Assembly: GCA_017616015.1 (NCBI GenBank)
Contig: JAFZYY010000030.1
Span: 247,706 to 311,705, forward strand
DNA from: Alphaproteobacteria bacterium
GTDB taxonomy: Bacteria > Pseudomonadota > Alphaproteobacteria > CAAGCB01 > CAG-977
Length of the DNA stretch: 64,000 nt
Direction of reading: 5' to 3'
The stretch's first letter is position 1, and each line of letters opens with the position of its first letter. Made by a program: the position numbers and the translations under genes. This document shows positions 2,100 through 27,295 of this stretch, piece by piece. The notes under the pieces were generated by a model. That model was not told the origin of the DNA. It ran no database searches and worked only from the letters and a program-made list of their open reading frames with translations.

Positions 2100-3241
2100 T
2101 GTTAAAAGAACTAGATATTAAAAATTTTAAGAATATTAAGGAAGAACATTTTGAATTATCTGGCCTGACAATTTTTACAGGAGTTAATTCTTCTGGAAAG
2201 TCATCTGTATTACAAAGTATTTTGCTTTTATCAAAAAAATATTCTCTGCAACAAAACGCCGATTTAAGTCGTTATACTTCATTTTTTTCTAAATTTTCAG
2301 AAGTAAAAAACAAATATATTAAAGAAGATATTATAACAATTGTAGCCATTTCAGAAGAGGATGAAAAATACAATTATAATATTAGTCCACAAAGAATTGA
2401 AGAAGCAGACTATTCAATATTAAAAAAACTTGCTCCTACTATTAAAGAATCTATTTTGACGAAAAAAAATAAACAAAACGATGCTTTTCTCGAATATATA
2501 GAAAGAATAGCAAATATGACAAGAAATATTTTTTCATATGAAGATAATTTATATTATTTATCAGCCAACAGAAACGGTCCTGAAGATATATCCCAAATAA
2601 ATCATGAGAAAAAAGTTGGCATTAATGGCGAATATTTAATAGGTTACTTAGCTCAAAATAAATTAAAAAATGTTGATGTTGCAATTCAAAAATTCAAAGA
2701 TAACGCAACATTAGCATATCAAGTAGGTGAATGGTTAAAAGATATCTTAGAAATAGACATTTCTGCAAATTTAGATATGATTGATGATATGCATGCTAAA
2801 CTAAGCTTTGATATTGAGGGGGTAACAAAATTAAATCCACTAAATGTAGGATCAGGAAATAGTTATTTGCTCAAGTTATTAATTCTTTGCTTAAGTTGTG
2901 TAAAAGGAAATATCGTAATCATAGAAAATCCAGAAATACATCTTCATCCAAAAGCTCAAGCTAAATTAGGGGAGTTCTTTTCTTTTTTAGCAGAAAATGG
3001 GGTACAAATAATTCTTGAAACACACAGTGAACACTTAATCAACAAAGTCCGTTTTCAAGTTAAGAAAAATAAAATATCAAATAAAAAGATTCACATATAT
3101 TATAAAAAATCAATTAAAGATAGTTTTTCAGCAATAGATATAGATGATACGGGGCACTTCGTAGATAAAGAAAACAAAAGAATCCCATTCCCTACAGGTT
3201 TTTTTGATACAAGCTTAGAAAATTTAATGGAAATAGGCTAA
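2096..3241 (+). CDS. ABC-type AAA ATPase (AAA_15/DUF3696-like family)
   Basis: Walker A FTGVNSSGKSS. C-terminal IIENPEIHLHPKAQ...ILETHSEHL is typical of AAA_15/AAA_21 ABC ATPases. ATGA start-stop overlap with the upstream gene. Confidence 0.75.
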   Translation: MMLKELDIKNFKNIKEEHFELSGLTIFTGVNSSGKSSVLQSILLLSKKYSLQQNADLSRYTSFFSKFSEVKNKYIKEDIITIVAISEEDEKYNYNISPQRIEEADYSILKKLAPTIKESILTKKNKQNDAFLEYIERIANMTRNIFSYEDNLYYLSANRNGPEDISQINHEKKVGINGEYLIGYLAQNKLKNVDVAIQKFKDNATLAYQVGEWLKDILEIDISANLDMIDDMHAKLSFDIEGVTKLNPLNVGSGNSYLLKLLILCLSCVKGNIVIIENPEIHLHPKAQAKLGEFFSFLAENGVQIILETHSEHLINKVRFQVKKNKISNKKIHIYYKKSIKDSFSAIDIDDTGHFVDKENKRIPFPTGFFDTSLENLMEIG

Positions 3242-3242
3242 A

Positions 3243-3965
3243 ATGGCATTTTCTTACCTTTTATCAGACGAATTAGCTGAGTTGTACCTTAATTATAAAG
3301 ATGGAAAAAACGTTAATCAAGCCTTGCTGGAGTTATTTTTTTCCTTCTATGAACCAGTACCTTTTATTTCATTGGATCAATTAAATAAATATGGAAGCGA
3401 TAATGTGGAAGCAAGACAAGCTTTAATGGCTAGTTGTTATAGCGCTAAATCAGAAGAACAAGTCTTAGAGGAAACAAAATACAGAATTAAATTAACTACT
3501 GATTGTAATAGATATCCATGTGTCGATATAAACAAAGGGAAACTTAAAAAGGAAATAGTGGCATCATATAAAGCCGGAGAGGTACGGGATGAAACAATAA
3601 AACACCTAAATAATTTATGCAAAAATGCACAAAGTATTGCGATTTATGACAAGTATATGTTTAAATCTAATGATATACAAAAGTCTTCGATTGCACTGTT
3701 TTTTAAAAATATTTTAGACGATCAAAATGCGATTAATATTTTTTATATAAAGCCTGGCAAAGAAAATATTCAAAAGCATCTTACATATCTTAAAAAAATA
3801 AGACAAAATTGCACTTTAAAAAATTCCCCTGATAATAGGTATAAAAATGCTCATGATAGATATATACTGATAGATAAGAGATTAGAGATAATTTTAAGCA
3901 GTGGATTAGAGTATTTGTTTGACATATCAAAAGAAATATCTTTAATATATAGAGAAATCATATGA
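3243..3965 (+). CDS. hypothetical protein, third gene of the DUF262/ATPase module
   Basis: 240-aa ORF starting 2 nt after the ATPase stop, with the same AT-rich composition. No recognisable motif. Confidence 0.55.
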   Translation: MAFSYLLSDELAELYLNYKDGKNVNQALLELFFSFYEPVPFISLDQLNKYGSDNVEARQALMASCYSAKSEEQVLEETKYRIKLTTDCNRYPCVDINKGKLKKEIVASYKAGEVRDETIKHLNNLCKNAQSIAIYDKYMFKSNDIQKSSIALFFKNILDDQNAINIFYIKPGKENIQKHLTYLKKIRQNCTLKNSPDNRYKNAHDRYILIDKRLEIILSSGLEYLFDISKEISLIYREII

Positions 3966-4238: not shown

Positions 4239-4445
4239 ATCGTTGACGAAGATCACGCGGCATTACAGCCAGACTTGTTCTCCCAAAGGAAAGAAGACGA
4301 GAAAGAGAGGAAAATGCAAGAGGCTGTCTTGGCGATCAAGCAAAAATTCGGGAAAAACGCTTTGCTTCGAGGAATGAGCTATACGGACAAAGCAACGGCG
4401 CGTGTGCGAAACAAGTTGATCGGAGGACACAATGGCGGCGAGTAA
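4239..4445 (+). pseudogene. C-terminal remnant of a Y-family (UmuC/DinB-like) DNA polymerase
   Basis: Frame ending TAA at 4443-4445 reads ...NIVDEDHAALQPDLFSQRKEDEKERKMQEAVLAIKQKFGKNALLRGMSYTDKATARVRNKLIGGHNGGE*. The KyGk..lrg.s...RNK.IGGH pattern is the typical Y-family polymerase C-terminal tail. There is no N-terminal or catalytic portion upstream; the frame hits a stop about 25 codons further up. The stop overlaps the start of the next gene. Confidence 0.5.
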
Positions 4446-4737
4446 AGAGGAACGTGCCCGTCAATTTCTGACGTTTAACGCTTTGACCGGGTATTACCAA
4501 ATGATATTGGAAAAACAGCGCGTTTCCGAACCGAAGAAAGAACTTTCGGAAGACGAAGCGGCGGCTTTGTCCGATAAATTAAAGAGCCTCCGGCGGCATG
4601 ACCTTGTATCCGTGACTTTTTACGACAAGGACGCTTATATCACCAAAACGGGAATGATTATGGATATTGATTTCACATTCCAAACGCTGACGATCGTTAA
4701 AACGAAGATACCGTTTCAGGATATTTTGAGGCTTTAA
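4432..4737 (+). CDS. YolD-like protein (UmuD-analogue accessory of Y-family polymerases)
   Basis: 101 aa. Conserved LSEDE...VxVTFYxxxxxxxxTGxIxxIDxxxQxLxI pattern of the YolD-like family. Start overlaps the polymerase-remnant stop. Confidence 0.6.
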   Translation: MAASKEERARQFLTFNALTGYYQMILEKQRVSEPKKELSEDEAAALSDKLKSLRRHDLVSVTFYDKDAYITKTGMIMDIDFTFQTLTIVKTKIPFQDILRL

Positions 4738-4823
4738 GCGGCGAAAACATAAAAAGACTTTGCGAAAGGACTTAAAACTGGATAGCCTAAGGTTTTGTTG
4801 ATATTTGATTATGGAGTTGCATT

Positions 4824-5096
4824 ATGAACAAAGCAGAAGTAGTAGCTGAAATCGCGAAGATCACCAGCTTGACGAAAGTTGATTCCGAACGGGCGACGGA
4901 AGCCTTATTGAACACGGTTGCCGCGACCTTGAAGAAAGGCGACGAAGTTCGCTTGGTCGGCTTTGGCACGTTCAGCGTGATGAAACGTCCGGCTTCGACC
5001 GGTCACAATCCCCGTACGGGTGTAGAAATTAAGATTCCGGCTTCCAAACAGCCGAAATTCAAAGCGGGCAAAGGTCTGAAAGAAGCGTTGAAATAA
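4824..5096 (+). CDS. hupB: HU family DNA-binding protein
   Basis: 90 aa: MNKAEVVAEIAK...GDEVRLVGFGTFSVMKRPASTGHNPRTGVEIKIPASKQPKFKAGKGLKEALK. GGAG ribosome-binding site upstream. Confidence 0.9.
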   Translation: MNKAEVVAEIAKITSLTKVDSERATEALLNTVAATLKKGDEVRLVGFGTFSVMKRPASTGHNPRTGVEIKIPASKQPKFKAGKGLKEALK

Positions 5097-5118
5097 TACC
5101 GGTTCAAAAACCGACAAA

Positions 5119-5147
5119 GGCGTGTCCAATCGGATGCGCTTTTTTTA
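5119..5147 (+). terminator. probable rho-independent terminator after hupB
   Basis: Imperfect GC hairpin followed by a T7 run at 5140-5147. Confidence 0.35.
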
Positions 5148-5178
5148 TGTCCAAAACGGTAACGTGGAATGGAAAACG

Positions 5179-5427
5179 TCATTTGTTGATGAAGTTTTCA
5201 TAGATGTAAATCTCGTCGTCCGCGCTGAGATCATCGTCGATGTCAAAAGGCTTGTCCTCTTTGTCTTCGTCATCGACATCGTCATAATCGGAAGAAGACG
5301 AGCCGGAACTATTACTGAACCCCCATTCCAGAAAAAGCCACGCAAGTGCCAAAAATGTTCCTAATCCGAACGTCACGAGTCCGCTCAGAAGAAGCCCCCA
5401 CCAGAAACAACTGCGCGTGCATTCCAT
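5179..5427 (-). CDS. small membrane protein with a strongly acidic C-terminal tail
   Basis: 82 aa with one hydrophobic helix (WWGLLLSGLVTFGLGTFLALAWLFL), then a D/E-rich tail. No homology signal; low confidence. Confidence 0.3.
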   Translation of the reverse strand: MECTRSCFWWGLLLSGLVTFGLGTFLALAWLFLEWGFSNSSGSSSSDYDDVDDEDKEDKPFDIDDDLSADDEIYIYENFINK

Positions 5428-5700
5428 TCCTGTCCGATCCTTTCCATATATTTTTCAGATAATCATACCTAATAACAATCGGACGGTCATTATCTTTCAT
5501 TTTTTAAGCTCATAAGTAGATTACTCTATGAATTCTATCAATAAATCTTTCCGAAAAAACGATCGAGGAGTCAAAAAGATCAAAAAGAGTCTTCAAATTT
5601 TGAACGAGTCGTCTATCTATTCAGAGTCTTTTAAATCTGTCATTTTTTGAATTGAAAATACACATTCCTTTGGTTATCCTTTTTAAAAGCGAAGAGTCGG

Positions 5701-5925
5701 ATGCACAGAATTTGTCTGTGTTTAGACGCTTTGAATGGAAAATTGAAAAAAGGGCTTGTCGATATGTTGACAGATAATGAACTAAATGAACTGCTTCACG
5801 ACATCATAAATATTGAGCAACGCTATCAAGACTCCTTGATTAACAAACGGAAAGATGAAGTTAGGAAAAAAATAATAGACGGTTATTTGCGACAAAAAGA
5901 AAAAGAGGATGGAGAAAAATTATGA
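5701..5925 (+). CDS. small hypothetical protein, first gene of the module upstream of dnd
   Basis: 74 aa. Its stop overlaps the next gene's ATG (ATGA), which suggests translational coupling. Confidence 0.4.
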   Translation: MHRICLCLDALNGKLKKGLVDMLTDNELNELLHDIINIEQRYQDSLINKRKDEVRKKIIDGYLRQKEKEDGEKL

Positions 5926-7991
5926 AATTATCAGCCCTTTCATTAAATAATTTCAGACAGTTTTACGGAAAGCAAAAAATTGTATTTTCCACTTCGCCTA
6001 AAAGCAAAATAACGTTCGTCCACGCAGAAAATAGTGCGGGGAAAACGACGATTTTGAACGCTGTTTTATGGTGTATGTTCGGGAAAGACTATTGTTCACA
6101 GAATTTTGCTCATCCTGATCAGCTTGTAAATGATAAGGCCTTGGAGGAAGGAACGACGTCTTGTCAGGTAGATGTCGGTTTCAAAACGGATTTTCCCGAT
6201 GAAAACGGTGTTACAGAATATATCATGTCTCGCAGATATAATCAGAAAACAAAAGTTGAAAAAATCCGCCTTTATTTTAAGGATCCTGAAACCCAAGAAA
6301 TGGATTATTACGATGGAGACAATGACATCCAAAAAGCCAGTATACAATATATGATGCAGCGATTGATTCCGCCTGGAGTATTAAAGCAGTTTTTTACAGC
6401 CGGAGAGGCCGCGGAACAAACGGGCATAAACTATACGGCTTTCAAGAAGTCTTTTGAAACCTTGCTTGGTATGGATTACATAAAAAAAGCGAGAAAAGAT
6501 ATATCGGATAACCGAGACAATTTCTGTAAGCAAATCAATATGGGAGAAAGAGAACAGAGGAAGTTTGATGGGCTTCTTAAAGAAAAAAATTCTGACATAA
6601 CGCGTATGGATGAACTTTCTGAGGAAATTAGTAAAAAAACAACAGAAATAGAGGAATGTGATAGAAAGATCAACGAAGCGGATCGCATAATAAGCAGGAA
6701 TGATGAACCTAAAAGAATTTTAGAAGAGCAGAAGAAAAGGGAAAGAGACTTAACTAAAACAGACGCGGAAATTGATGAAAACGAAAAAAACATCAAAAAT
6801 TGGATTTCAAACAACGCGATGTCATTGTTGTTTTCTGCGGAACAATTGCATTCCGTCAATCAATATGTGAATAACGCGGACTCGGAACGTATTACCGTTG
6901 AATATCCGGTCAACAAAAAACTTCTTGAAGCACTTTTGAACAGGGGAATTTGCATCTGCGGAACAAAGATTACTGAAAAAGAAGAAAAGAAATTAAGAGA
7001 AGCTCTTGAGCAGATTGTTCAAGACCCAAAAGAAACGGAAAAAGAAAATAAGAGCGAGCGTTTAAAAACTTTCGTCGTTAGATTGGCGGACAAAGCGGCA
7101 GATGCACAAAATAAAATAAACGAATTGCAGCGAAAAAGAGTGATTTTAAGAAATGAACACGCCGAGATAAGAACGGATATTGAACGTTTGGGAGACATAT
7201 TGGCTAAAAATCAGCCCGAAAACATAACCGCTGCAGAGAATTCCAGGAGAGAACAGCAACGAAAAAGGGCGGTTTACGAGCAAGATAAAGCCAAAGCCAA
7301 GAATGATTTAGAGAATGCGAAGAGAGATTTGGATAGAGTTGAACGGGAGCTACAGCGCCTCCATGTCCCCAATAACTCTAAAGAAGTTGAATACGCCGAT
7401 ATTTGTAGCCGACTTATGCGAAAGTGTGATGATGTGATAGAAAACGAAATTCCGCAAGCAAGAAGAATTGCTGCGGAAAAAATGAATGTTTTTCTTGCGA
7501 ACGTTGGGAATAAAATGACGGTTACATTCAATGACGAAAACGATATGGAAGTGAGAAACGCTTACGGTCGCCCGCAAGCTCCTGGCGGTGCGGAAGCTTC
7601 TTTTATCGCTTTATCGTTTGTCTTAGCTATGACCGAAATTTCAAAAGAAAGAGCGCATAAGAATCAAAAAACCGGAAATAATTTCTTACCTGGGTTGATT
7701 GCTCCGTTTATTTTCGACTCTGTTATGGGAGTTTTTGATGAAACAAACAGAAGTGTTTTCTGGGATTATATTCCAGAGCGATCGGATCAAATGATTCTGC
7801 TTTTATCTTCAACGCAAGGAGGAGAGGAAATAGCAGAAGATCTCAGAAACAAAGGATTGATTGGCAAAGAGTATTATCTGGAAGCGCATGGAAACAATGT
7901 GGATAAAGAAATCAAAAGCCAGATAAAAGGACAAATTAGAGATTTAAAAGTCCGCGACAACGATGTTTTTACCAAAATTAGAGAAATCTAA
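5922..7991 (+). CDS. SMC-like ABC ATPase (DndD/AAA_23-like N-terminus, long coiled coil)
   Basis: 689 aa. Walker A ENSAGKTTILNAVLW at the N-terminus. K/E-rich coiled-coil middle with a CICG motif. C-terminal D-loop region IFDSVMG. Confidence 0.8.
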   Translation: MKLSALSLNNFRQFYGKQKIVFSTSPKSKITFVHAENSAGKTTILNAVLWCMFGKDYCSQNFAHPDQLVNDKALEEGTTSCQVDVGFKTDFPDENGVTEYIMSRRYNQKTKVEKIRLYFKDPETQEMDYYDGDNDIQKASIQYMMQRLIPPGVLKQFFTAGEAAEQTGINYTAFKKSFETLLGMDYIKKARKDISDNRDNFCKQINMGEREQRKFDGLLKEKNSDITRMDELSEEISKKTTEIEECDRKINEADRIISRNDEPKRILEEQKKRERDLTKTDAEIDENEKNIKNWISNNAMSLLFSAEQLHSVNQYVNNADSERITVEYPVNKKLLEALLNRGICICGTKITEKEEKKLREALEQIVQDPKETEKENKSERLKTFVVRLADKAADAQNKINELQRKRVILRNEHAEIRTDIERLGDILAKNQPENITAAENSRREQQRKRAVYEQDKAKAKNDLENAKRDLDRVERELQRLHVPNNSKEVEYADICSRLMRKCDDVIENEIPQARRIAAEKMNVFLANVGNKMTVTFNDENDMEVRNAYGRPQAPGGAEASFIALSFVLAMTEISKERAHKNQKTGNNFLPGLIAPFIFDSVMGVFDETNRSVFWDYIPERSDQMILLLSSTQGGEEIAEDLRNKGLIGKEYYLEAHGNNVDKEIKSQIKGQIRDLKVRDNDVFTKIREI

Positions 7992-8004
7992 GAAGGGGGG
8001 ATAA

Positions 8005-8502
8005 ATGTCAGCAGATTTGGAAATGAAGCGTTCCGTCGCCATTGATGAGGAACACGAGAATACTTTAAGGGCCATCACACAAAACGACAACCCGAAGGCT
8101 CCTTTCGAACATTTTTACTCCGCTATAACATTTGCTGCTGTATTGGGATTTAGCCAGGGGCATACTCCGAAACCCAATTCAAAACACATAAAAATGGATG
8201 CAATAAAACCGGAGTATTTTTCAAGATGCGATGGTGGATATATAGCCCTTCTCATCGCGTTATTGCATACAAAAAGTTATGACAAAATCCTCAACGAGAT
8301 ACCAGAAGATTCTGACTATGTTTCTATTTTTACCGGTTATGCCAATGCGGGATTGGAGATTATTGAAGACTGGAGAACACAGTATAACGGTGACATAATG
8401 AACACGACGGAAATAATCTTACAGGGGCTTCAGAATGTTCTTGGGAGCAATCGCGCAAACAAAAAGGCCGCTGACGCTGGCGAAGTAACTGTGAGACTGT
8501 GA
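8005..8502 (+). CDS. hypothetical protein
   Basis: 165 aa. Sits between the ATPase and the PLD/helicase gene, overlapping the latter's start by 4 nt. Confidence 0.55.
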   Translation: MSADLEMKRSVAIDEEHENTLRAITQNDNPKAPFEHFYSAITFAAVLGFSQGHTPKPNSKHIKMDAIKPEYFSRCDGGYIALLIALLHTKSYDKILNEIPEDSDYVSIFTGYANAGLEIIEDWRTQYNGDIMNTTEIILQGLQNVLGSNRANKKAADAGEVTVRL

Positions 8503-10844
8503 TGAGCCTTTCAGAAATAGACATTAAACCGTTTTATTCAAGTTCATCATCCAATGTGTTAGAGGATTTCTATATCCCTTGTCTTTCAAATGCAGTTCGA
8601 TATGACAGGGCGGTTGGCTATTTTTCGTCCGCCGTTTTTTCCCTGATGGCGAGAGGAATCGCTCCTTTAGTAAAAAACGGAGGAAAAATACGTCTGATCA
8701 TAGGAACAACGCTAACGAATGACGAATTTGCCGCTATTGAAAATGCATTAAAGGAAAACAACGAAAATATTTTCTTTGATCGTCTTGACGAAGCCTTGTT
8801 AAATGAATTTTGTTACCATCCGGACAATGAAAATCTGAACAAGCTTTTCCAAAGCCATTTAGATATGTTTTCTTGGTTGGTTTCAAGGAAATATCTTGAA
8901 ATTAAAGTGGCATTCAGGGATATAGGTATCTATCATGAGAAAATCGGTGTTATAGAAGATGACGACGGAGAAAAAGTCGTTTTTTCCGGTTCAAACAATG
9001 AGACTCCTGCGGCAATTCTAACAGAGTTTAATTATGAGGCGTTCGCCGTATGGTGTTCCTGGAAAAAAGAACATTTAGAACATTTTGCTGTTGAAAGTCA
9101 GGAATTCGAGAAATTATGGAATAACGAAGTGGAAAACGTCTATGTCCTTCCTCTTTCAAATGAAAATCATTTTTTGAAAACAAAGGAACTTCTGAAAAAA
9201 AACTCTGCCCACATTGACGAAATACAGTCTTTTGAAAAATTTATTTCTGATGAAAAAAATATTATTGAAGAAATAAAAAAGATTAAAACCAGAAGGAATT
9301 TTATTCTTTCAGAAATAAGAAAGAAAATTGTGGAAGAGGATATTTTTGAAAGAAACAAAAAAAGATTTCAACCCAAAATTCCTGATTTATGGGTTCAACA
9401 AATCAGACCCCTGCAACGCGAAGCCGTCATAGCGTGGGATTCTTCCGAGTATTTAGACGGTTTCCAGGATGTCTACTTAGAAGAATATAACCGTTCTCCT
9501 GAAGCAAAAAGACGGCACTGTGGGATTTTGCAACTGGCAACGGGAGCCGGAAAAACGCGAATAGCCATTATGGCGGCAATCAAAACGTTTGAAGCCTTAA
9601 AGGAGCAAAGTGATAACGCTAAACTGGTAACGATTTTTGCCGTTCCATATCAAGGTCTGGCAGATCAGTGGTCTAAGCTGTTAGATGAGTGTAATATGTT
9701 CCCCGTCCGATGCTGGGATTCAAGGGCATCTTGGTCGGAGGACTTAGAGAGAGCTCGTTCAGGGTTTAAGAATGGCTATTTAAATTTTTTATCAATAGTT
9801 GTTGTCAACAAAACATTATCCTCTGAAGGTTTTCAAAAGTTTTTGAGTGATATTTCACCGAATGAATTGTTTTTTGTCGGAGACGAGTGCCATCATCACG
9901 CAAATATGGCGGATAAACTTCCGAATGCGCACTTTAAGATGGGATTATCAGCGACGCCATTTGAAGATTATCCCTCGCTAAAAGACAATGATTTAATTAA
10001 ATATTACGGAGACGTTTGTTATGTCTATGACTTATCACAAGCCATTAAGGATGGTATTTTGGCAAAATATCAATATCACGTTTTGCCTGTTGAACTTTCG
10101 AACGAGAAAGACGGTGATAAATTAAGCGAAGAAGAAGAATTCAAAAAGATTTCCAGCAATATAGCCGCTATCCTTATCAAGAATAACAATAATTTTTCAG
10201 ATCCCGATCTTCTTCCCCTTTTTCTAAAACGTAGCAGACTTTTAGGGAGTGCTAAAAACAAAATAAAGAAGCTCAATGAGGCTTTGGACCGGTGGTGTCC
10301 TGAGCCCAAAAAGTATTCGTTATTTTTCTGCGGAGAAGGAGTTGATCCCTATTTTAATGAAGAGGAGAATCCTGAACGCAACGATAATCTAATTACGACT
10401 ATTACAGCACTCCTGAACGATCGAGGGTGGATTCCCGCTCAATATACAGCAAAAAACAAAGCGGACAGGACCGCTAAACTGAATGGATTTAAGAACGGAG
10501 CCTACAATGCTCTTCTGTCTATGAAATGCTTGGATGAAGGTGTTGATCTTCCGGCCTGCAAACAAGCATTTCTTTTGGCAAGTGCCAATAAATCGCGCCA
10601 ATACATTCAAAGGCGGGGACGCGTTCTGAGAAAACAGGGGAAAAATGATACTTCCGAAGCCCTTATCATAGATTTTTATGTGTATATAAAACCGAAAGAA
10701 GTTCAATCCGAATCGGAAAAGGGCTTAATATCCCGCGAGTTAAAACGAATTGTCGAGTTTGCGCGAGACGCTGAAAATGAAGACGCTTTGGATGATATTC
10801 AAGATGTATTGGAACTTTACGGTATAGATGTAAAAATCAGTTGA
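8499..10844 (+). CDS. PLD-like (HKD) nuclease domain fused to an SF2 DEAH helicase
   Basis: 781 aa. N-terminus YDRAVGYFSSAVFSL...IYHEKIGVIED (HKD-like). Helicase motifs I ATGAGKTRIA, II DECHHH, III SATP, VI QRRGRVLR. Confidence 0.8.
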   Translation: MMSLSEIDIKPFYSSSSSNVLEDFYIPCLSNAVRYDRAVGYFSSAVFSLMARGIAPLVKNGGKIRLIIGTTLTNDEFAAIENALKENNENIFFDRLDEALLNEFCYHPDNENLNKLFQSHLDMFSWLVSRKYLEIKVAFRDIGIYHEKIGVIEDDDGEKVVFSGSNNETPAAILTEFNYEAFAVWCSWKKEHLEHFAVESQEFEKLWNNEVENVYVLPLSNENHFLKTKELLKKNSAHIDEIQSFEKFISDEKNIIEEIKKIKTRRNFILSEIRKKIVEEDIFERNKKRFQPKIPDLWVQQIRPLQREAVIAWDSSEYLDGFQDVYLEEYNRSPEAKRRHCGILQLATGAGKTRIAIMAAIKTFEALKEQSDNAKLVTIFAVPYQGLADQWSKLLDECNMFPVRCWDSRASWSEDLERARSGFKNGYLNFLSIVVVNKTLSSEGFQKFLSDISPNELFFVGDECHHHANMADKLPNAHFKMGLSATPFEDYPSLKDNDLIKYYGDVCYVYDLSQAIKDGILAKYQYHVLPVELSNEKDGDKLSEEEEFKKISSNIAAILIKNNNNFSDPDLLPLFLKRSRLLGSAKNKIKKLNEALDRWCPEPKKYSLFFCGEGVDPYFNEEENPERNDNLITTITALLNDRGWIPAQYTAKNKADRTAKLNGFKNGAYNALLSMKCLDEGVDLPACKQAFLLASANKSRQYIQRRGRVLRKQGKNDTSEALIIDFYVYIKPKEVQSESEKGLISRELKRIVEFARDAENEDALDDIQDVLELYGIDVKIS

Positions 10845-10860
10845 CAGCAGATCGTTTTGG

Positions 10861-10888
10861 ATATACGTAAGTATATACTTGCGTATAT
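10861..10888. promoter_or_regulatory. 28-bp near-perfect palindrome directly upstream of dndB; candidate operator
   Basis: atatacgtaagtatatacttgcgtatat pairs at 13 of 14 positions. A TTGACA hexamer lies at 10841-10846 and GGAG at 10888-10891. Confidence 0.45.
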
Positions 10889-10899
10889 CGGAGTCCGCG

Positions 10900-11976
10900 A
10901 TGTTTTCTTATAGATTTCCTGTTGTTCGAGGGGTTCAAGCCAACAAAGAGTATTATATTGGTATGCTCCCTTTGGAGTATTTATCTAAACTTTTTCCCGA
11001 TGATCCCGATGTCGTCGCCCCGGAGTTCCGCGCCCAAAGACGCGTGAATGAACAAAGAATCCCCACGATCAGAGATTACATCTTAAAAAACAGGACTTCT
11101 TATGTCTTTTCCGCATTATCCGCTTCGATTGACGGTCATTTCAACTTTATCCCCTCCTCAAGTTCCCCGGATTTAGGGATTCTTGAAGTCGAAATGAACG
11201 CCGTGTTTCTTATCAATGACGGTCAACATCGCAAGGCGTCGCTTCAAGCGGCTTTAGAGGAAGACCCGTCCCTTAAAACAGAAACGATTTCCATCGTTTT
11301 CTTTAAGGACGAGGGGCTTCAACGGAGCCAACAGATGTTTACCGACCTGAACAAACACGCCGTCAAGACATCGAACTCCATCGCTGAACTTTATGATAAT
11401 CGGGACAGAATTGCGGTCATAAATCGAACTGTTGTTTCATCAATAGATTTTCTAAACACCTATACGGACAAGGAACGGGATAATCTTGGGAAGTTTTCAT
11501 CAAATTTGTTCACTTTGAACACGTTTTATCTGGCGACAAAACGCATTTTGAAAGAAAGCGGCGGCGATGATGAAAAAGATATAGAGTTTTTATGCCGTTT
11601 TTGGGAAACCGTTATTAAAAACATAGAACCGTGGCAAGAACTTCAAAAGCGGGAAATATCAAAGGTCGATTTACGCGAGAACTACATCATAACGCAAGGC
11701 GTGGTTATACAGGCTTTGGGCGTGATCGGAAAATACTGCTACGATCATAGAAAAGAAGAAAATCCTCAAACGGACTTGACACGGTTAAATCAAATTGATT
11801 GGCACAGAACGGCAAAGGATTGGAAATACCGCGTCGTTCGCGCTGACGGCAAAATCCTCACAAGCGAAAAAGCCATTCAACTTGCCGCGATCCAGATCAA
11901 AAAGATAATTAGGATTTCTCTTTCCCCGGAAGAAAAAAATCTTGAAGCACGTTTCAATTCAGAAAAGAGAAAGTAA
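10900..11976 (+). CDS. dndB: DNA sulfur modification protein DndB (DGQHR-domain)
   Basis: FLINDGQHRKASL motif. ATG at 10900 preceded by GGAG. The track ORF begins at a TTG at 10879. Confidence 0.8.
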   Translation: MFSYRFPVVRGVQANKEYYIGMLPLEYLSKLFPDDPDVVAPEFRAQRRVNEQRIPTIRDYILKNRTSYVFSALSASIDGHFNFIPSSSSPDLGILEVEMNAVFLINDGQHRKASLQAALEEDPSLKTETISIVFFKDEGLQRSQQMFTDLNKHAVKTSNSIAELYDNRDRIAVINRTVVSSIDFLNTYTDKERDNLGKFSSNLFTLNTFYLATKRILKESGGDDEKDIEFLCRFWETVIKNIEPWQELQKREISKVDLRENYIITQGVVIQALGVIGKYCYDHRKEENPQTDLTRLNQIDWHRTAKDWKYRVVRADGKILTSEKAIQLAAIQIKKIIRISLSPEEKNLEARFNSEKRK

Positions 11977-11985: not shown

Positions 11986-13524
11986 ATGTCCGAAAAATGT
12001 GAAGTATGCGAAGCCGCAAAAAAAGAAATCTCCATTACAAAGGAATCTGTCGAAGGACTTATGGAAACCGTCCGACGGCTGTATTTAGCTGATGATATTC
12101 CGTGGGTAATCGGGTATTCGGGAGGAAAAGACAGCACGGCGACGCTTCAACTGGTTTGGCTCGCTCTTAAAGATTTGCCGAAATACAAATTCAGAAAGCA
12201 GATTCACGTTATCAATACGGACACTCTTGTTGAATCTCCGGTCGTATCCCAATGGGTTAAACGGTCGCTTCAAATTTTAGATGAAGCCGCACAGGAACAA
12301 GGATTGCCTTTTGTTACTCATCGCCTGACTCCTGAAATGGACAACACTTATTGGGTAAATTTCATCGGGCGCGGCTATCCGTTCCCGAGGAAACAACTCC
12401 GGTGGTGCACGGATCGACTGAAAATTCAGCCCGTAAACAACTTTGTGAAGAACAAAATCGCCGAACACGGCGAGATCATTCTGGTGATCGGAACCCGAAA
12501 AGCCGAAAGCGCAAACCGCGCTAAAACAATGGCGTATTATGAAAAATTGCGTGTTCGGGAATTATTGAGTCCGAGCCAAACAATGGCAAACGAGCTTGTC
12601 TTTACACCCCTTGAAGATTGGAATGACAACGATGTTTGGGTGTTTTTAATGCAATATGCAAATCCGTGGGGATACTCAAACAAGGAATTGCTGACCCTGT
12701 ATCGTGGAGCGACCGCAGACGGAGAATGCCCGATGATGGTTGAAAAGGGATTGCCAAGCTGCGGTAAAAGCCGTTTCGGGTGTTGGGTTTGCACAATGGT
12801 CGAAAAAGACAAATCAATGGAAGCTATGATCGCAAACGATGAAGAAAAAGCGTGGTTAGCCCCGTTGCTTGAATTTAGAAACAAATTCGGAGATGAAGCA
12901 AAAGATCGCGAACGCCGGTCTTTCAGAAAAATGACCGGAGCATTGTTCGGTTCTTATAAACAACTCCATCACGGCCCTTATAAAAAAGAAATCCGTGAGG
13001 AATGGTTAAGAAATTTGCTTTCCATTCAAAAAGAAATCAATGAAAACGCGCCGGAGGAGTTTAAGAACTTGGAATTGATTTCTTTGCCTGAATTAAGAAA
13101 TATCCGACGGATTTGGGTTTTTGAAAAACACGAATTTGACGATGCGCTTCCGAGAATCTATGAAGAAGTGATCGGAAAGCCCTTTGACGATCCTGAATGG
13201 ACTGCTCCCGAAGATTTCCGCAAGAATGAGTGGGATATTTTGAAAGACGTAGTGAACGAACTCTATCCCGATGAGGAATTGGCGTTTGAAATGGCATATA
13301 GCTTGATTGATACTGAAAATCAGTCCAAAAGTCTGAACAAAAGACGCGGTGTTCTTCAAGGTTTGGAAGACTGTATAAAAAAGAACTTTTATAAAAACGA
13401 AGAAGACGCGACAAATTACTATATGAACAAAATGGTTCGCAAGAAAGAGCTTGGTGGAAAGTATAACGAAAAAGCTCTTGACGACACTTATGATGAAGCG
13501 GACGCAGAGGAAGAAGAACAATGA
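11986..13524 (+). CDS. dndC: DndC (PAPS-reductase-like PP-loop ATP pyrophosphatase)
   Basis: PP-loop GYSGGKDST. C-terminal cysteine cluster CPMMVEKGLPSCGKSRFGCWVC. 512 aa. Confidence 0.9.
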   Translation: MSEKCEVCEAAKKEISITKESVEGLMETVRRLYLADDIPWVIGYSGGKDSTATLQLVWLALKDLPKYKFRKQIHVINTDTLVESPVVSQWVKRSLQILDEAAQEQGLPFVTHRLTPEMDNTYWVNFIGRGYPFPRKQLRWCTDRLKIQPVNNFVKNKIAEHGEIILVIGTRKAESANRAKTMAYYEKLRVRELLSPSQTMANELVFTPLEDWNDNDVWVFLMQYANPWGYSNKELLTLYRGATADGECPMMVEKGLPSCGKSRFGCWVCTMVEKDKSMEAMIANDEEKAWLAPLLEFRNKFGDEAKDRERRSFRKMTGALFGSYKQLHHGPYKKEIREEWLRNLLSIQKEINENAPEEFKNLELISLPELRNIRRIWVFEKHEFDDALPRIYEEVIGKPFDDPEWTAPEDFRKNEWDILKDVVNELYPDEELAFEMAYSLIDTENQSKSLNKRRGVLQGLEDCIKKNFYKNEEDATNYYMNKMVRKKELGGKYNEKALDDTYDEADAEEEEQ

Positions 13525-15455
13525 TCATCAAAAAACTTAAACTTTATAATTTTGGTATCTATGCTTACCTTAATATGTTCGTTTTCAAAGGCGCAGCACC
13601 GGTTGTTTTGATCGGCGGTATGAACGGACGGGGAAAAACAACGTTCTTGGAAGCTGTCCTGCTCGGCCTTTACGGTTCAAACTCGTTCGCGTTTCAGGAA
13701 ACTAATTTCAAATACAAAGATTATTTGGCGTCATATACCAACAAGACCGACGCCTCGCAGATGGCGTATATCGAAATAGAGTTTTCTATGGAGAAATATG
13801 ATTCGGAAACTTATACAATCCATAGGGAATGGAGCAAAAAGACAAAGTTTCAAGAGCATATTTGGGTAAAGAAAAACGGGGAAGACAACGCTTTTCTAAC
13901 CGAAAATTGGGCGATGTTTATTGAAAACATTTTACCAAGCGCATTGTCTAAATTTTTCTTCTTTGACGGTGAAAAAATAGCGGCGTTAGCAGAGAACAAC
14001 ACCTCGGAACAGATCAAAGAATCAATAAAAGCGATGTTGGGGGTTTCCATTCTTGATACATTGGGTAACGATCTAAACAAGATTATCTCTAAAATATCGA
14101 AATCCAAAAAAGGCAACAGCGAATTAGACCGACTTGAAACATTAAAGAATGAGAAAGAGAAAGCAATCGCTGATTTGCAGGAAGCCGATACAAAAATAGC
14201 GGATAAAAACGCGGCAATCATCAAACTGAAAGCTAAACTTGAGAACAAGAAGAAAGATTATACGTTAAAAGGCGGCGACATCGTTTCACAAAAGCACGAT
14301 CTTATTGCTAAAAGGGCAGAAAGCATTTCCGCTTTGAATTTGTGCAATGAAAGTCTTGCTGAATTGGCTTCAAGCGAAATGCCTTTGAAAATGGTGTCAT
14401 TCCTTTTGAACGATATAGAAGTTCAAAGCGAACAAGAGTTTGAACAAAAGAAATATGAAATAACACTTGAGAAAATAAAGGAATTACAGAGTTCTTTTTC
14501 CGACAAGGAACATACGGACATCAGTTCTTTTATTTCGTTCGTTCAGGATAAAGTGGCAAAGGAAAAGAAAGACACCCTTTACAATTTATCGAACGAAAAT
14601 CTATTCAAACTTCACGATTTAATAAAAAACAGAATAGACGCTTCTATTGATAAAGCGAAAAAAATAACGAAAGAAAGAGAAAAACACAAAAACTCTATCA
14701 ACGAAATTGATAACTATCTTTCCGTAGATATAGATGATGAAGTTTTGAATAAACTCTTTAAGGAAATAAAAACACTTGAAAATACAATTTCAGAGGAAGA
14801 AATATCTCTTAAGTTTTTGGAAGAACAACGTAAAACATTAAACGGAATTGCTACAAAAGCCGAATCTGAATTTAGCAAAGCGGCGGAGGAGATTTTGTCG
14901 TCAATAGAAACGGACGAAGAAGAAGGACGAAGCCTGAAATACTTATATATGGCTCAAAAAATATTTGTGGAATATCAGAAAAAGCTCCAAGCACGAAAGA
15001 CTGAAATTCTGGCAAAGGAAATGACGAATTGTTTTACACAGCTCGCGAACAAAAAAAGTCTTGTTTCAAAGATAACAATGGATCCTGTTTCTCTTGATCT
15101 CCACTATTTTGACAGTTCAGAAAACGAAATTATAAAAAAACGGCTATCTTCCGGGGAAAAACAGTTGATGATTATATCTTTGTTATGGGCTTTAGCGTTA
15201 TGCTCAAAAAAGAAACTTCCGGTTATTATTGATACTCCGCTGTCCCGACTTGATTCCGCCCATCGCGGTTCTCTCATCAAAACCTATTTCCCAAACGCGA
15301 GCGATCAAACAATCATTCTTTCGACCGATACGGAAGTTGATAAACGGTATTACAAAATGATGCGTCCGTTCGTTGGCGATGAATACACTCTGGAATATAA
15401 CGATACAAGCAAACGGACGGTAGTGCGCCGCGGCTATTTTGGTTGGGGAGAATGA
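13521..15455 (+). CDS. dndD: DndD (SMC-like ATPase)
   Basis: 644 aa. Walker A IGGMNGRGKTT, long coiled coil, C-terminal LSSGEKQ signature and Walker B VIIDTP. ATGA overlap with dndC. Confidence 0.9.
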   Translation: MIIKKLKLYNFGIYAYLNMFVFKGAAPVVLIGGMNGRGKTTFLEAVLLGLYGSNSFAFQETNFKYKDYLASYTNKTDASQMAYIEIEFSMEKYDSETYTIHREWSKKTKFQEHIWVKKNGEDNAFLTENWAMFIENILPSALSKFFFFDGEKIAALAENNTSEQIKESIKAMLGVSILDTLGNDLNKIISKISKSKKGNSELDRLETLKNEKEKAIADLQEADTKIADKNAAIIKLKAKLENKKKDYTLKGGDIVSQKHDLIAKRAESISALNLCNESLAELASSEMPLKMVSFLLNDIEVQSEQEFEQKKYEITLEKIKELQSSFSDKEHTDISSFISFVQDKVAKEKKDTLYNLSNENLFKLHDLIKNRIDASIDKAKKITKEREKHKNSINEIDNYLSVDIDDEVLNKLFKEIKTLENTISEEEISLKFLEEQRKTLNGIATKAESEFSKAAEEILSSIETDEEEGRSLKYLYMAQKIFVEYQKKLQARKTEILAKEMTNCFTQLANKKSLVSKITMDPVSLDLHYFDSSENEIIKKRLSSGEKQLMIISLLWALALCSKKKLPVIIDTPLSRLDSAHRGSLIKTYFPNASDQTIILSTDTEVDKRYYKMMRPFVGDEYTLEYNDTSKRTVVRRGYFGWGE

Positions 15456-15844
15456 CAATGTTTATCAAACAAATTAGGCTTTCCGAAACTTCCAAAGAGC
15501 GTTTGAGCAGATTAAAAGGAAAAACGGGAATCAAGAATTGGAATATCCTTTGCCGTTGGGCTTTATGCTACTCTTTAAGCGAACAAACCCTTCCGACCGA
15601 TGTCCCGGTAAATACGGATAGCAATGTAGAGATGTCCTGGTTTACATTCGGCGGTGAATACAGCGATATTTACTCGGCCTTATTGGTTGCCTGGTGTCAA
15701 AGAATGAAATTATCAACAGATGAAGAAACGCTTGAAAAGTATTTCAAACTTCATTTAGAGCGCGGGATCGCATATCTTTCGGGCACGAACCTGATTAAAA
15801 GCATTGACGATTTGTTGAAATTGGCGATCGAGGTCAAAAAATGA
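15452..15844 (+). CDS. dndE: DndE
   Basis: MTMFIKQIRLSETSKERLSRLKGKTGIKNWNILCRWAL matches the DndE N-terminal pattern. ATG at 15452 overlaps the dndD stop (ATGA), with GGGGAG upstream. The track start at 15443 is a TTG. Confidence 0.75.
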   Translation: MTMFIKQIRLSETSKERLSRLKGKTGIKNWNILCRWALCYSLSEQTLPTDVPVNTDSNVEMSWFTFGGEYSDIYSALLVAWCQRMKLSTDEETLEKYFKLHLERGIAYLSGTNLIKSIDDLLKLAIEVKK

Positions 15845-16992
15845 GCGTTTATCTGGATTATAACGCCTCTGCTCCCATAGATGAGCGCGTGTTGGCGGTT
15901 ATGATTGACGTGTATAAAAACGCGATTGGAAACGCCGACAGTCGAACACATAATTTCGGCGAAAATGCCCGAAAAATCGTTGAAAACGCACGGGAACAGG
16001 TCGCTTCTTTGTTAGGCGTTGACAAAGGAGAAGTCTTTTTTACAAGCGGGTCAACAGAGAGCAACAATATTGCAATTCAAGGATTAAAGGAATATGCGCT
16101 TCAGACTGGGAAAAAACATATCATCACAACGGCGATAGAGCATAAATCCGTATTGGAAACCGCCAAATATATGCAACGGAACGGCTTTACTGTTGATTTT
16201 ATTTCTCCCGAACCAAGCGGACGGATAAACGAACAAGCTGTTTTGGATAAAATCGGAGAAAAAACTCTACTCGTTTCCGTTATGCACGCGAACAATGAAA
16301 CCGGAATCATTCAACCAGTCAAGGAAATAGGCGATTTTTTAACGGATAAGGACATTTTATTCCATATCGACGCCACGCAAACTTGCGGAAAATTAGTGCC
16401 CGAAATCAAGGGATTGAAATATAATATGCTTTCTTTAAGCGCGCATAAATTGAGCGGGCCTCAAGGTGTTGGTACTTTAATTCTGCGAAAGAAAAAATAC
16501 AAGCTGCCTCCGGTGAAGCAGATTATCTTCGGAGGACAACAAGAACGGGGTATCAGACCGGGAACGATACCGGTCGCGTTGGTAGCCGGATTAGGAAGAG
16601 CTTGCCAATTAGCTGAAATTGAATATCAAGAGAACATTCAAAACTGCCGCGAAATCAAAAAAGACATCCTTGAATTGCTGAACAATTCAAAATTAAAAAT
16701 TGAAGTAAACGGTGAACCGGATTGTTGTATGCCAAACACATTGAATATCAGCATTAAAGGCGTTGAATCCGAGGCTCTTATGCTTTCAACAAAAGATTTT
16801 TGTGGTATATCAAACGGATCGGCCTGCACTTCGTCCGACTACAAACCGAGTTATGTTCTTTCCAGTATGAATTTGGATAATGAACGAATATCCCAAGCCG
16901 TTCGTTTAAGTTGGGGTGGAAAATCCGTCAAAGAAAAGATATTGACGGACTTATCCCTTTTGATAAAACGTGCGGAAGAACTCGTTTTTTAA
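15841..16992 (+). CDS. dndA: DndA/IscS-type cysteine desulfurase
   Basis: 383 aa class-V aminotransferase. PLP-lysine motif SAHKLSGPQGVG. C-terminal active-site Cys region SNGSACTS. ATGA overlap with dndE. Confidence 0.85.
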   Translation: MSVYLDYNASAPIDERVLAVMIDVYKNAIGNADSRTHNFGENARKIVENAREQVASLLGVDKGEVFFTSGSTESNNIAIQGLKEYALQTGKKHIITTAIEHKSVLETAKYMQRNGFTVDFISPEPSGRINEQAVLDKIGEKTLLVSVMHANNETGIIQPVKEIGDFLTDKDILFHIDATQTCGKLVPEIKGLKYNMLSLSAHKLSGPQGVGTLILRKKKYKLPPVKQIIFGGQQERGIRPGTIPVALVAGLGRACQLAEIEYQENIQNCREIKKDILELLNNSKLKIEVNGEPDCCMPNTLNISIKGVESEALMLSTKDFCGISNGSACTSSDYKPSYVLSSMNLDNERISQAVRLSWGGKSVKEKILTDLSLLIKRAEELVF

Positions 16993-17069
16993 TTTGTTCA
17001 TTTTATCATAAATAAATATATCTGTTCACAAAAATAGTTCTAATTCTGTCATTTTATATATTCTTTTTT

Positions 17070-18071: not shown

Positions 18072-18076
18072 TCGTC

Positions 18077-18637: not shown

Positions 18638-18724
18638 AAACAAGCGATAATTTGACTTTTTGACCCATTTTTGATATAATGCACCTATCATCGAAAAATC
18701 GGTGATAGGTATTTTTTTTGGTAT

Positions 18725-19679: not shown

Positions 19680-19821
19680 TAAACATACATTAATTCATAT
19701 TCTTTTATTTTTTCGCAGAATACTGCGATTTTTTGAAATGTCAAAAATAGGGGTAAAAAGCAACATATTCATCAACGCAAACGATTTTTACGTTAATGAA
19801 GATTTTTTATGGAGGTAGATA

Positions 19822-27291: not shown

Positions 27292-27295
27292 ATAA

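What the first reader, a model, noticed from the sequence alone, without database searches (positions are those of the whole stretch)
5701..10844. Translationally coupled four-gene module (small ORF, SMC-like ATPase, small ORF, PLD-nuclease/SF2-helicase) directly upstream of and co-oriented with dndBCDEA: candidate phosphorothioate-dependent restriction partner unlike DndFGH
Seen in sequence. All four ORFs share the dnd strand. Start and stop codons overlap or lie within 14 nt (5925/5922 ATGA, 7991 to 8005, 8502/8499). The last gene ends 56 nt before dndB. The 689-aa protein has a DndD-like N-terminal Walker A plus a long coiled coil. The 781-aa protein fuses an HKD/PLD-type nuclease N-terminus to a complete DEAH SF2 helicase.

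Established knowledge. dnd modification clusters are commonly paired with a restriction module. The classical partner DndFGH has a different gene number, sizes and architecture, dominated by a roughly 1600-aa DndH.

Inference. This module is the self/non-self discriminating restriction arm for the adjacent phosphorothioate modification, and belongs to a family other than DndFGH. It may be related to more recently reported dnd-linked modules such as Pbe-type, whose composition I cannot recall reliably, or it may be new.
Basis: partly seen in the sequence, partly recalled or inferred. Interest (0 to 1): 0.7.

Follow-up and report, generated by a model that had tools for sequence, protein, structure and literature searches.

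The report
Pbe-type phosphorothioate defence gene module

Summary
Four co-oriented, tightly coupled genes lie directly upstream of dndBCDEA. They are not a new family. Profile searches identify them as PbeB-PbeC-PbeD-PbeA, the PbeABCD system of Xiong et al. 2019, renamed the CxC ABC-ATPase/DndE/HKD-SF2 helicase system by Krishnan et al. 2024.

- PbeC matches PADLOC PbeC full length (4.8e-84) and has the defining CxC hook at its midpoint.
- PbeA matches PbeA full length (3.1e-194), with invariant HKD and SF2 motifs.
- PbeD is a "dnd-associated protein 4", and its predicted fold best matches the DndE crystal structures.
- The small ORF is a real PbeB. It is 53 aa (start 5764), not 74 aa.

None of the four proteins' listed PADLOC hits is to DndF/G/H, SspE or SspFGH. 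The gene order B-C-D-A is a common permutation (13 of 72 reference loci). Three close relatives share the same nine-gene cassette. About 70 of 80 related loci have a phosphorothioate modification module (Dnd, Ssp or BrxP/Ssp-like) within 10 kb.

Minor local features are a divergent subclade with a variant ABC signature motif in PbeC, a DndB-operator-like palindrome in the pbeA-dndB spacer, and a recombination mosaic. Verdict: a new member of a known kind, of low interest.

The parts
5573..5700 (+). Conserved non-coding leader and promoter region of the pbe operon. It contains the sigma-70-like pair TTGAAA (5652) - 17 nt - TATCCT (ends 5680).
   Evidence: The promoter-like site comes from the consensus scan. 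The hexamers are conserved in L086 and L088, and the stretch is nearly identical to L088 although the coding DNA has diverged. Function is inferred.
5764..5925 (+). pbeB, a 53-aa small charged protein.
   Evidence: The conserved start is M22. Window vs L087 has 17 synonymous and 14 non-synonymous codon differences, the other frames are full of stops, and in-frame stops lie upstream in L087 and L088. A 50-95 aa ORF abuts PbeC in 74 of 75 loci. The protein falls in a BLAST cluster of 34 with a shared helix motif. It has no PADLOC, Pfam or NCBIfam hit.
5922..7991 (+). pbeC, a 689-aa coiled-coil ABC ATPase of the CxC (zinc-hook) clade and a paralog of DndD.
   Evidence: PADLOC PbeC 4.8e-84 over residues 1-658. 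C344-x-C346 (nt 6951-6959) lies at the midpoint and is invariant in 76 of 76 sequences, while the window's DndD has none. Walker A is N37-T43 and the Walker B Asp is D599. The signature motif is a clade-specific variant, GGAEAS.
8005..8502 (+). pbeD, a 165-aa DndE-like (clade-2 DndE, 'dnd-associated protein 4') putative DNA-binding subunit.
8502..10844 (+). pbeA, a 780-aa fusion of an N-terminal single-HKD (PLD-family) nuclease domain and a C-terminal SF2 DExH helicase.
   Evidence: PADLOC PbeA 3.1e-194 over residues 4-762. Pfam finds PLDc_2, ResIII and Helicase_C. H145, K147, D153, G163, S164, N166 and E167, and motifs I (A346-T352), II (G460-H464), III (S483-P486) and VI (Q703-R707), are invariant in 26 sequences.
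10860..10889 (.). A 30-bp palindrome, GATATACGTAAGTAT|ATACTTGCGTATATC, in the pbeA-dndB spacer. It is a candidate DndB operator.
   Evidence: The arms are 93% complementary. The palindrome is conserved in L086, L087 and L088. It contains TACG-N14-CGTA, whereas the footprinted Salmonella DndB site is TACG-N10-CGTA (PMC4507180). There is only one such copy in the window. Binding is inferred.
10900..11976 (+). dndB, a regulator of the DGQHR/ParB-like family.
   Evidence: PADLOC DndB 8.3e-125, and TIGR03233 at 398 bits, above its cutoff of 328.
11986..13524 (+). dndC, the PAPS-reductase-like sulfurtransferase.
   Evidence: TIGR03183 7.8e-181, above its cutoff.
13521..15455 (+). dndD, an ABC ATPase with no CxC motif.
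   Evidence: PADLOC DndD 2e-220, and TIGR03185 at 453 bits, above its cutoff. No CxC motif is present.
15458..15844 (+). dndE.
   Evidence: PF08870 7.5e-43 and TIGR03184 2.3e-36. The start follows the gene call.
15841..16992 (+). dndA, a cysteine desulfurase.
   Evidence: PADLOC DndA/SspA 1e-123 to 1e-127. TIGR03235 scores 447 bits, just under its cutoff of 480.

Best explanation
Window 5764-10844 encodes a complete PbeABCD system in the order pbeB-pbeC-pbeD-pbeA. This is the effector partner of the adjacent dndBCDEA double-strand phosphorothioate (PT) modification operon. Together they form an 11.4-kb mobile defence cassette.

Shown here:
- Family membership of each protein.
- Intact catalytic and structural motifs.
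- Tight gene coupling.
- Conservation of the nine-gene cassette in three relatives.
- Strong linkage of the family to PT modification genes.

Inferred mechanism:
- The PbeC dimer, joined at its CxC zinc hook, works with the DndE-like DNA binder PbeD as an ATP-driven DNA-scanning complex that reads PT status.
- On DNA lacking the host's PT marks, it engages PbeA.
- PbeA's SF2 motor translocates, and its HKD domain (probably acting as a dimer, since there is one HKD per chain) nicks or cuts at non-uniform sites. This stops invader replication.
- PbeB is a small, fast-evolving, essential accessory or regulatory subunit.
- The dnd operon is probably regulated separately by DndB at the palindrome in the 55-nt spacer.
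For: - PADLOC gives full-length hits: PbeC 4.8e-84 and PbeA 3.1e-194. It also gives PbeD 1e-3.
- TIGR04062 and TIGR04095 match, and PF27807 is recorded for the identical PbeD.
- The CxC motif is invariant in 76 of 76 sequences, at the midpoint.
- The HKD and SF2 motifs are invariant in 26 of 26 sequences.
- PbeB shows codon-level purifying selection and conserved position and motif.
- L086, L087 and L088 have the identical nine-gene layout.
- Among 80 reference loci, Dnd is nearby in 33, Ssp in about 26, and BrxP/Ssp-like in about 11 (confirmed by PADLOC).
- In the prototype, all four genes are needed for a roughly 10^4-fold, PT-dependent protection against virus SNJ1 (PMC6459918).
- The published argument that PbeA is an HKD endoDNase is in PMC10853773.
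Against: - There is no experiment on this locus.
[quoted passage not shown] A similar negative Southern result coexisted with TUNEL-detected damage for SspFGH (PMC8092258).
- Krishnan et al. question whether Pbe is a restriction partner of Dnd at all.
- This clade is divergent. The NCBIfam scores are below their curated cutoffs (314 vs 600, and 48 vs 74). PbeB has no library model.
- PbeC's ABC signature motif is GGAEAS rather than SxGExQ, so its ATPase cycle may differ.
- The PbeD model has only moderate confidence (pLDDT 68).
Confidence: 0.85

Rival explanations
1. The module is a Pbe system that acts without cutting DNA. PbeC/PbeD/PbeA bind or translocate on non-PT DNA and physically block replication, and the HKD domain serves in binding or is vestigial. 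This is the original Xiong et al. model.
For: In the prototype, SNJ1 DNA stayed intact for 6 h while replication was halted. Loss of PT caused no toxicity, only loss of protection (PMC6459918).
Against: The HKD catalytic residues H145, K147 and D153 and the GSxNE segment are invariant across 26 sequences that share only 36-87% identity with the window's PbeA. That argues for selection on catalysis. A Southern blot can miss heterogeneous nicking (PMC8092258).
Confidence: 0.2
2. The module is an abortive-infection device. PbeB is a labile negative regulator, and when a phage removes it, the PbeA nuclease is released onto the cell's own DNA. This is the second model of Krishnan et al.
For: PbeB is small, highly charged and fast-evolving. 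Only 4 representatives are detectable among 1.84 billion proteins. It is translationally coupled to PbeC. The model is proposed in PMC10853773.
Against: Deleting pbeB in the prototype abolished protection rather than causing toxicity (PMC6459918). PbeB keeps a conserved helix motif across 34 loci, which fits a structural subunit better.
Confidence: 0.1
3. The CxC-ATPase/DndE-like pair is a second target-recognition unit for DNA modification. It cooperates with DndCDEA and is not an effector against invaders.
For: PbeC and PbeD are paralogs of DndD and DndE. Krishnan et al. describe 'mix and match' of the two kinds of pair.
Against: The module always carries a helicase-nuclease and no sulfur-transfer enzyme of its own. 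In the prototype, PT modification needs only dndCDEA, whereas protection needs the pbe genes. The same module also sits beside Ssp systems, which have no DndD or DndE.
Confidence: 0.04
4. The module is a decaying, non-functional remnant in a crowded defence island.
For: Neighbouring systems show possible decay: NsnA is split into two ORFs, there is a split methyltransferase (MTase), and there is a UvrD fragment. PbeC has a variant signature motif.
Against: All four ORFs are intact with intact motifs. The variant motif is conserved in all four clade members, down to 50% PbeA identity. PbeB shows purifying selection.
Confidence: 0.03

Closest known systems
PbeABCD of Haloterrigena jeotgali A29 (Xiong et al. 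[quoted passage not shown] 2024 (NAR 52:1005)
   Same: It has the same four components: an HKD-SF2 helicase, a small protein of about 50-70 aa, a CxC coiled-coil ABC ATPase, and a DndE-like protein of about 150-165 aa. It has the same adjacency to dnd modification genes.
   Different: The gene order is B-C-D-A instead of A-B-C-D. dndB is present, whereas the archaeal prototype has dndCDEA only. The host is bacterial (an Alphaproteobacteria MAG). PbeA is only about 28-37% identical to homologs in reference genomes and carries about 60 extra residues. PbeC has a variant signature motif.
DndFGH (Salmonella enterica Cerro 87)
   Same: It is a PT-linked effector module next to dnd genes, and it contains ATPase/translocase and nuclease activities.
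   Different: There is no homology among the listed hits. It has three genes, including DndH of about 1600 aa. It is toxic without PT, whereas Pbe is inactive without PT in the prototype.
SspE and SspFGH (partners of SspABCD)
   Same: They are effectors that use PT status to stop phage DNA replication.
   Different: The proteins are unrelated (SspH is FtsK-like). They pair with single-strand PT. None of their models is among the listed matches here.
DndD-DndE pair of the modification operon
   Same: PbeC and PbeD are paralogs of DndD and DndE, with the same ABC head, coiled coil and RHH-type partner.
   Different: PbeC has the CxC hook and DndD does not. PbeD is longer (165 vs 128 aa) and very divergent in sequence (10% identity in the hhalign alignment).
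Rad50/Mre11 and type I/III restriction motor-nucleases
   Same: They share a zinc-hook coiled-coil ABC ATPase working with a nuclease, and an SF2 translocase fused to a nuclease.
   Different: The hook is CxC rather than CxxC. The nuclease is HKD rather than PD-(D/E)xK or Mre11-type. The specificity is presumed to come from PT rather than from base methylation.

Membership tests
PbeABCD / CxC ABC-ATPase system | PbeA: N-terminal HKD (PLD-family) nuclease fused to an SF2 helicase. | tested here: met
   PADLOC PbeA 3.1e-194, full length. Pfam PLDc_2, ResIII and Helicase_C. The HKD and helicase motifs are invariant in alignment A1.
PbeABCD / CxC ABC-ATPase system | [quoted passage not shown] | tested here: met
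   PADLOC PbeC 4.8e-84. C344-I-C346 of 689 residues aligns with an invariant CxC in 76 of 76 sequences.
PbeABCD / CxC ABC-ATPase system | PbeD: DndE-like protein encoded immediately after PbeC. | tested here: met
PbeABCD / CxC ABC-ATPase system | PbeB: small protein encoded immediately before PbeC. | tested here: met
   A 53-aa ORF with ATGA overlap. An equivalent ORF is present in 74 of 75 loci. There is a shared motif and a BLAST cluster of 34, and purifying selection. No library has a matching PbeB model.
PbeABCD / CxC ABC-ATPase system | The four genes are co-oriented and expressed as one unit. | tested here: inconclusive
   The genes overlap or have a 13-nt spacer, and there is one conserved upstream promoter-like site. 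Transcription itself cannot be tested here.
PbeABCD / CxC ABC-ATPase system | The module is adjacent to a PT modification gene cluster. | tested here: met
   dndBCDEA starts 55 nt downstream.
PbeABCD / CxC ABC-ATPase system | PT-dependent protection against viruses that requires all four genes. | not testable with these tools
   This is known only for the H. jeotgali system (PMC6459918).
DndFGH | Homologs of DndF, DndG and the roughly 1600-aa DndH. | tested here: not met
   No DndF/G/H model appears among the listed PADLOC hits of the four proteins. The largest ORF in the whole window is 1048 aa, an RND pump.
SspE / SspFGH | An SspE (DUF262 GTPase + HNH) or SspF/G/H (FtsK-like SspH) homolog. 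| tested here: not met
   These models are not among the listed PADLOC hits. The published composition differs (PMC8092258).
SMC proper | A hinge domain and a coiled coil of about 800-1000 residues. | tested here: not met
   TIGR02169 scores 21.5 bits against a cutoff of 729. The protein has 689 aa in total and a CxC hook in place of a hinge.
PLD-helicase anti-phage protein (NF042964 / PADLOC PLD_Helicase) | A full-length match to the roughly 900-aa family. | tested here: not met
   Only the HKD domain matches (residues 13-211), at 73 bits against a cutoff of 1100.

The most novel reading that the evidence does not exclude
The window's small clade has four known members. It shows a conserved degenerate ABC signature motif in PbeC (GGAEAS for SxGExQ), an altered D-loop, and about 60 extra residues in PbeA. 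This clade could be a mechanistic variant of Pbe in which ATP-driven head engagement of the scanning ATPase works differently. More broadly, Pbe may be a general reader of backbone PT that pairs interchangeably with Dnd, Ssp and BrxP/Ssp-like modifiers. I did not find that pairing described in the searchable literature.
Probability: 0.12. Interest if true: 0.35.

Novelty: new member of a known kind. Interest (0 to 1): 0.12.

Why it matters
It matters little on its own. The finding shows that an unannotated MAG locus, labelled only 'DEAD/DEAH box helicase' and 'hypothetical protein', is a complete Pbe-Dnd defence cassette.

It does add some comparative points to a system whose mechanism is still disputed:
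- The HKD nuclease residues are strictly conserved.
- PbeB is a real, translated family with a conserved helix motif.
- Fold evidence supports PbeD as a DndE-like protein.
- A DndB-operator-like site lies at the module boundary.

The related loci suggest that Pbe pairs with Ssp-type as well as Dnd-type modification. If that is confirmed and unpublished, it would help explain the 'solitary' Pbe systems reported in 2019.

Tried and rejected
1. DndFGH, SspE and SspFGH membership: none of these models is among the listed hits, so rejected.
2. The 74-aa reading of the small ORF: the upstream 21 codons are not conserved and are blocked by stops in relatives.
3. An exact-match lookup of PbeA from GTG 8499 and of two other window ORFs found nothing, because the gene calls use other starts.
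4. A second DndB-type palindrome upstream of pbeB: the TACG-N8-16-CGTA count in the window is at chance level (6 found against 5.0 expected), and none lies near pbeB.
5. An 11-nt direct repeat, TCTGTCATTTT, at 5636 and 17045 as a cassette boundary or target duplication: 13.5% of shuffles share an 11-mer, and the relatives lack the 3' copy, so rejected.
6. A canonical sigma-70 promoter in the pbeA-dndB spacer: the invariant TTGACA (10841-10846) has no properly spaced -10 element, so this is unresolved.
7. Rfam: only two tRNAs in the window, and nothing in either regulatory region.
8. Solved structures: none exists for any Pbe protein. PbeA matches only generic XPB/Rad25 helicase cores and PbeC matches nothing.
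9. A single-sequence word search with PbeD found only 3 relatives. It worked once seeded with an alignment.
10. A literature search for a named Ssp-Pbe pairing found nothing.
Full report
**Observation**

The + strand carries ORFs at 5701-5925, 5922-7991, 8005-8502 and 8499-10844. They are followed by five further ORFs up to 16992.

- ATGA overlap at 5922-5925.
- A 13-nt spacer with a GAAGGGGGG ribosome-binding site before ATG 8005.
- TGA at 8500-8502, overlapping both GTG 8499 and ATG 8502.
- A 55-nt spacer between the last stop (10844) and the dndB ATG (10900).

The downstream genes are dndB, dndC, dndD, dndE and dndA. PADLOC and Pfam match all five strongly, and the NCBIfam scores for dndB-dndE are above the curated cutoffs (dndA: 447 bits against a cutoff of 480).

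**Identity**

PADLOC assigns three of the four proteins to Pbe families:

| Protein | PADLOC result |
|---|---|
| 689 aa | PbeC, 4.8e-84, residues 1-658 of the protein on 1-638 of a 643-position model |
| 781 aa | PbeA, 3.1e-194, residues 4-762 on 1-679 of 682 |
| 165 aa | PbeD, 1e-3 |

NCBIfam gives 'DNA phosphorothioation-associated protein 4' (TIGR04062, 1.1e-12) for the 165-aa protein. It gives 'DNA phosphorothioation system restriction enzyme' (TIGR04095, 1.3e-93) for the helicase half of the 781-aa protein. Both scores are below their curated cutoffs. No DndF/G/H or SspE-H model appears among the listed hits.

The literature defines the system.
- Xiong et al. 2019 named pbeABCD in Haloterrigena jeotgali. 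They showed that all four genes are needed for a roughly 10^4-fold, PT-dependent protection against virus SNJ1, with no visible viral DNA cleavage. They found pbeAC beside dndCD in 235 bacterial genomes. In their system PbeB is 66 aa and PbeD is 152 aa (PMC6459918).
- Krishnan et al. 2024 re-annotated PbeA as an HKD endoDNase fused to an SF2 helicase. They describe PbeB as a rapidly evolving small protein, PbeC as a CxC zinc-hook ABC ATPase that is sister to DndD, and PbeD as a DndE cognate. They report tandem DndD-type plus CxC-type systems in 936 bacterial taxa (PMC10853773).

**Tests of each defining feature**

*PbeA.* In an alignment of 26 homologs (36-87% identical to the window protein), the following are invariant:
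- the HKD signature: H145, K147, D153, then G163-S164-x-N166-E167;
- SF2 motif I (A346-T-G-x-G-K-T352), motif II (G460-D-E-C-H464), motif III (S483-A-T-P486) and motif VI (Q703-R-R-G-R707).

There is one HKD per chain, so a dimer is expected, by analogy with single-HKD nucleases (my own knowledge).

*PbeC.* C344-I-C346 lies at the exact midpoint of the 689 residues. It aligns with an invariant CxC in 76 of 76 sequences, and the window's DndD has no such motif.

*PbeD.*
- A profile-profile comparison with DndE is colinear over the whole DndE domain, but weak (P = 5e-4, probability 30%).
- An AlphaFold2 model built from a 49-sequence alignment has pLDDT 68.

*PbeB.*
- The conserved start is ATG 5764, which gives 53 aa.
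- Window vs L087 shows 17 synonymous and 14 non-synonymous codon differences. The other frames are full of stops. In-frame stops precede the ATG in L087 and L088.
- A 50-95 aa ORF ends at the PbeC start in 74 of 75 loci.
- The window protein joins 33 others in one BLAST cluster, with a shared motif of the form (E/D)I(I/M)x(I/V)E(R/Q)(R/K)(F/Y).
- As a single query it finds only 4 representatives among 1.84 billion proteins, which fits fast evolution.

**Context and comparative genomics**

The window is identical to a contig of a MAG labelled 'Alphaproteobacteria bacterium'.

Close relatives:
- The three closest PbeA relatives (87, 72 and 50% identity) lie on contigs with the same nine-gene order, pbeB-C-D-A-dndB-C-D-E-A. 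One of them sits next to MobC and a relaxase.
- Homology with L086 runs from 5636 to the dndA stop at 16992, which delimits an 11.4-kb cassette.
- Against L088 the window is a mosaic. It is about 84% identical in nucleotides from 9858 (mid-pbeA) through dndC. It is about 70% or undetectable over pbeBCD and the 5' half of pbeA. The leader at 5573-5700 is again nearly identical.

Reference genomes (80 loci):
- The order is A-B-C-D in 59 loci and B-C-D-A in 13.
- A PT modification module lies within 10 kb in about 70 loci:
  - Dnd in 33;
  - a full SspB-SspC-SspD set in 24, plus 2 truncated;
  - a BrxP-like reductase with SspB and SspC in 8, plus 3 truncated.
- Several of the 10 loci without a module are short contigs.
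- These 80 are the best of at least 550 matches, so this is not an unbiased census.

RefSeq already labels plasmid-borne homologs with the two 'DNA phosphorothioation' names.

The window has no ORF above 1048 aa and no DndFGH.

**Regulatory features (inferred)**

- A sigma-70-like pair, TTGAAA-17-TATCCT at 5652-5680, precedes pbeB. It is conserved in L086 and L088.
- The pbeA-dndB spacer holds a 30-bp palindrome at 10860-10889 that is conserved in all three relatives. It contains TACG-N14-CGTA. The footprinted DndB operator of Salmonella is TACG-N10-CGTA (PMC4507180). This suggests that DndB controls dnd expression at the boundary between the two modules. Whether pbe and dnd share a transcript is not known.

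**Peculiarities of this clade**

- PbeA is at most 37% identical to homologs outside its four-member clade. It carries insertions between the HKD and helicase parts and before motif I.
- PbeC has GGAEAS where DndD has SSGEKQ and other PbeC proteins have SxGExQ. It has DSVMGVFD where others have DAPFGxLD. Both variants are conserved in all four clade members.

These features are worth noting but do not change the assignment.

**Mechanism**

Established for the family, from the prototype:
- Protection depends on PT.
- Protection needs all four proteins.
- Viral DNA replication stops after adsorption.

My committed model has four parts:
- PbeC and PbeD scan DNA and read PT status.
- PbeA translocates and nicks or cuts unmarked DNA at heterogeneous sites.
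- PbeB is an essential accessory subunit.
- The invariant HKD residues are the main reason to prefer a nucleolytic step over a pure roadblock.

The negative Southern blot in the prototype is the main evidence against this model. The rival models are a non-cleaving block, abortive infection with PbeB as the release switch, a modification-targeting role, and decay. They are listed with their tests.

**Verdict**

This is a divergent new member of a known system, so interest is low.

Noticed in passing
window 988-3965: An NsnABC-like defence system in a low-GC block (0.27-0.30). NsnB (2096-3241, 1.7e-85) and NsnC (3243-3965, 7.8e-51) are intact. NsnA is split into two ORFs with an ATGA overlap, 988-1542 and 1539-2099, matching model positions 21-188 and 195-382 of 385.
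   Followed up: partly
window 34030-38627: A methyltransferase in two overlapping ORFs (34030-34674 and 34667-36157, the latter Eco57I-type). It is followed by an 821-aa T5orf172 + ResIII helicase protein (36162-38627) that matches the middle of a type IIG restriction-methylase model. This may be a split or multi-subunit restriction system.
   Followed up: partly
window 38801-43341, next to tRNA-Gln at 44050-44123: A low-GC (about 0.30) islet on the minus strand. It carries an HNH_5 protein, an ASCH protein, a PDC-M11A candidate defence protein (40257-41777, 3.8e-180), an unassigned 342-aa protein, an AAA_17 protein and, just beyond 43341, an HTH_17 protein. It looks like an insertion at a tRNA gene.
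   Followed up: partly
window about 17000-33600: A mosaic mobile region downstream of dndA. It carries a 65-aa UvrD-helicase fragment (17070-17267, minus strand), three integrase genes (19822-20412, 28848-30572 on the minus strand, and 30894-32063), an AAA_14/DUF4143 protein, a Fic protein, a DUF927 protein, a HipA-HTH pair (27345-28804, minus strand), and an SLFN_AlbA_2 protein. The Pbe-Dnd cassette therefore sits in a large defence and mobile island.
   Followed up: partly
window 5573-5700 vs L088 1751-1880, and window 9858: The non-coding leader upstream of pbeB is nearly identical between the window and L088, although their PbeA proteins share only 50% identity. Nucleotide identity jumps to about 84% from mid-pbeA (9858) through dndC. 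This indicates recombination within pbeA and strong constraint, or recent exchange, of the leader.
   Followed up: partly
L008 12432-19846; L057 2581-9991; 24 + 8 further reference loci: Many Pbe modules in reference genomes lie next to a complete SspABCD (single-strand PT) system, or next to a BrxP-like reductase + SspB + SspC + desulfurase set, rather than next to dnd genes. I found no paper naming this pairing in the searchable library. It may explain part of the 'solitary' PbeAC loci reported in 2019.
   Followed up: partly
window 7581-7601 (PbeC residues 554-560) and 7716-7739: In the window's four-member clade, PbeC has GGAEAS in place of the ABC signature SxGExQ, and DSVMGVFD in place of DAPFGxLD. 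Both are conserved within the clade. The effect on ATP-driven head engagement is unknown.
   Followed up: partly
L088 689-1760: In the 50%-identity relative, the same pbeBCDA-dnd cassette lies directly downstream of MobC and relaxase genes. This suggests carriage on a mobilisable element.
   Followed up: no
window 4432-5427: Immediately upstream of the cassette are a YolD-like gene (4432-4737), an HU-family DNA-binding protein gene (4824-5096) with a clear terminator hairpin (5116-5143), and a minus-strand 82-aa ORF (5179-5427) with a hydrophobic N-terminal segment and an acidic tail.
   Followed up: no
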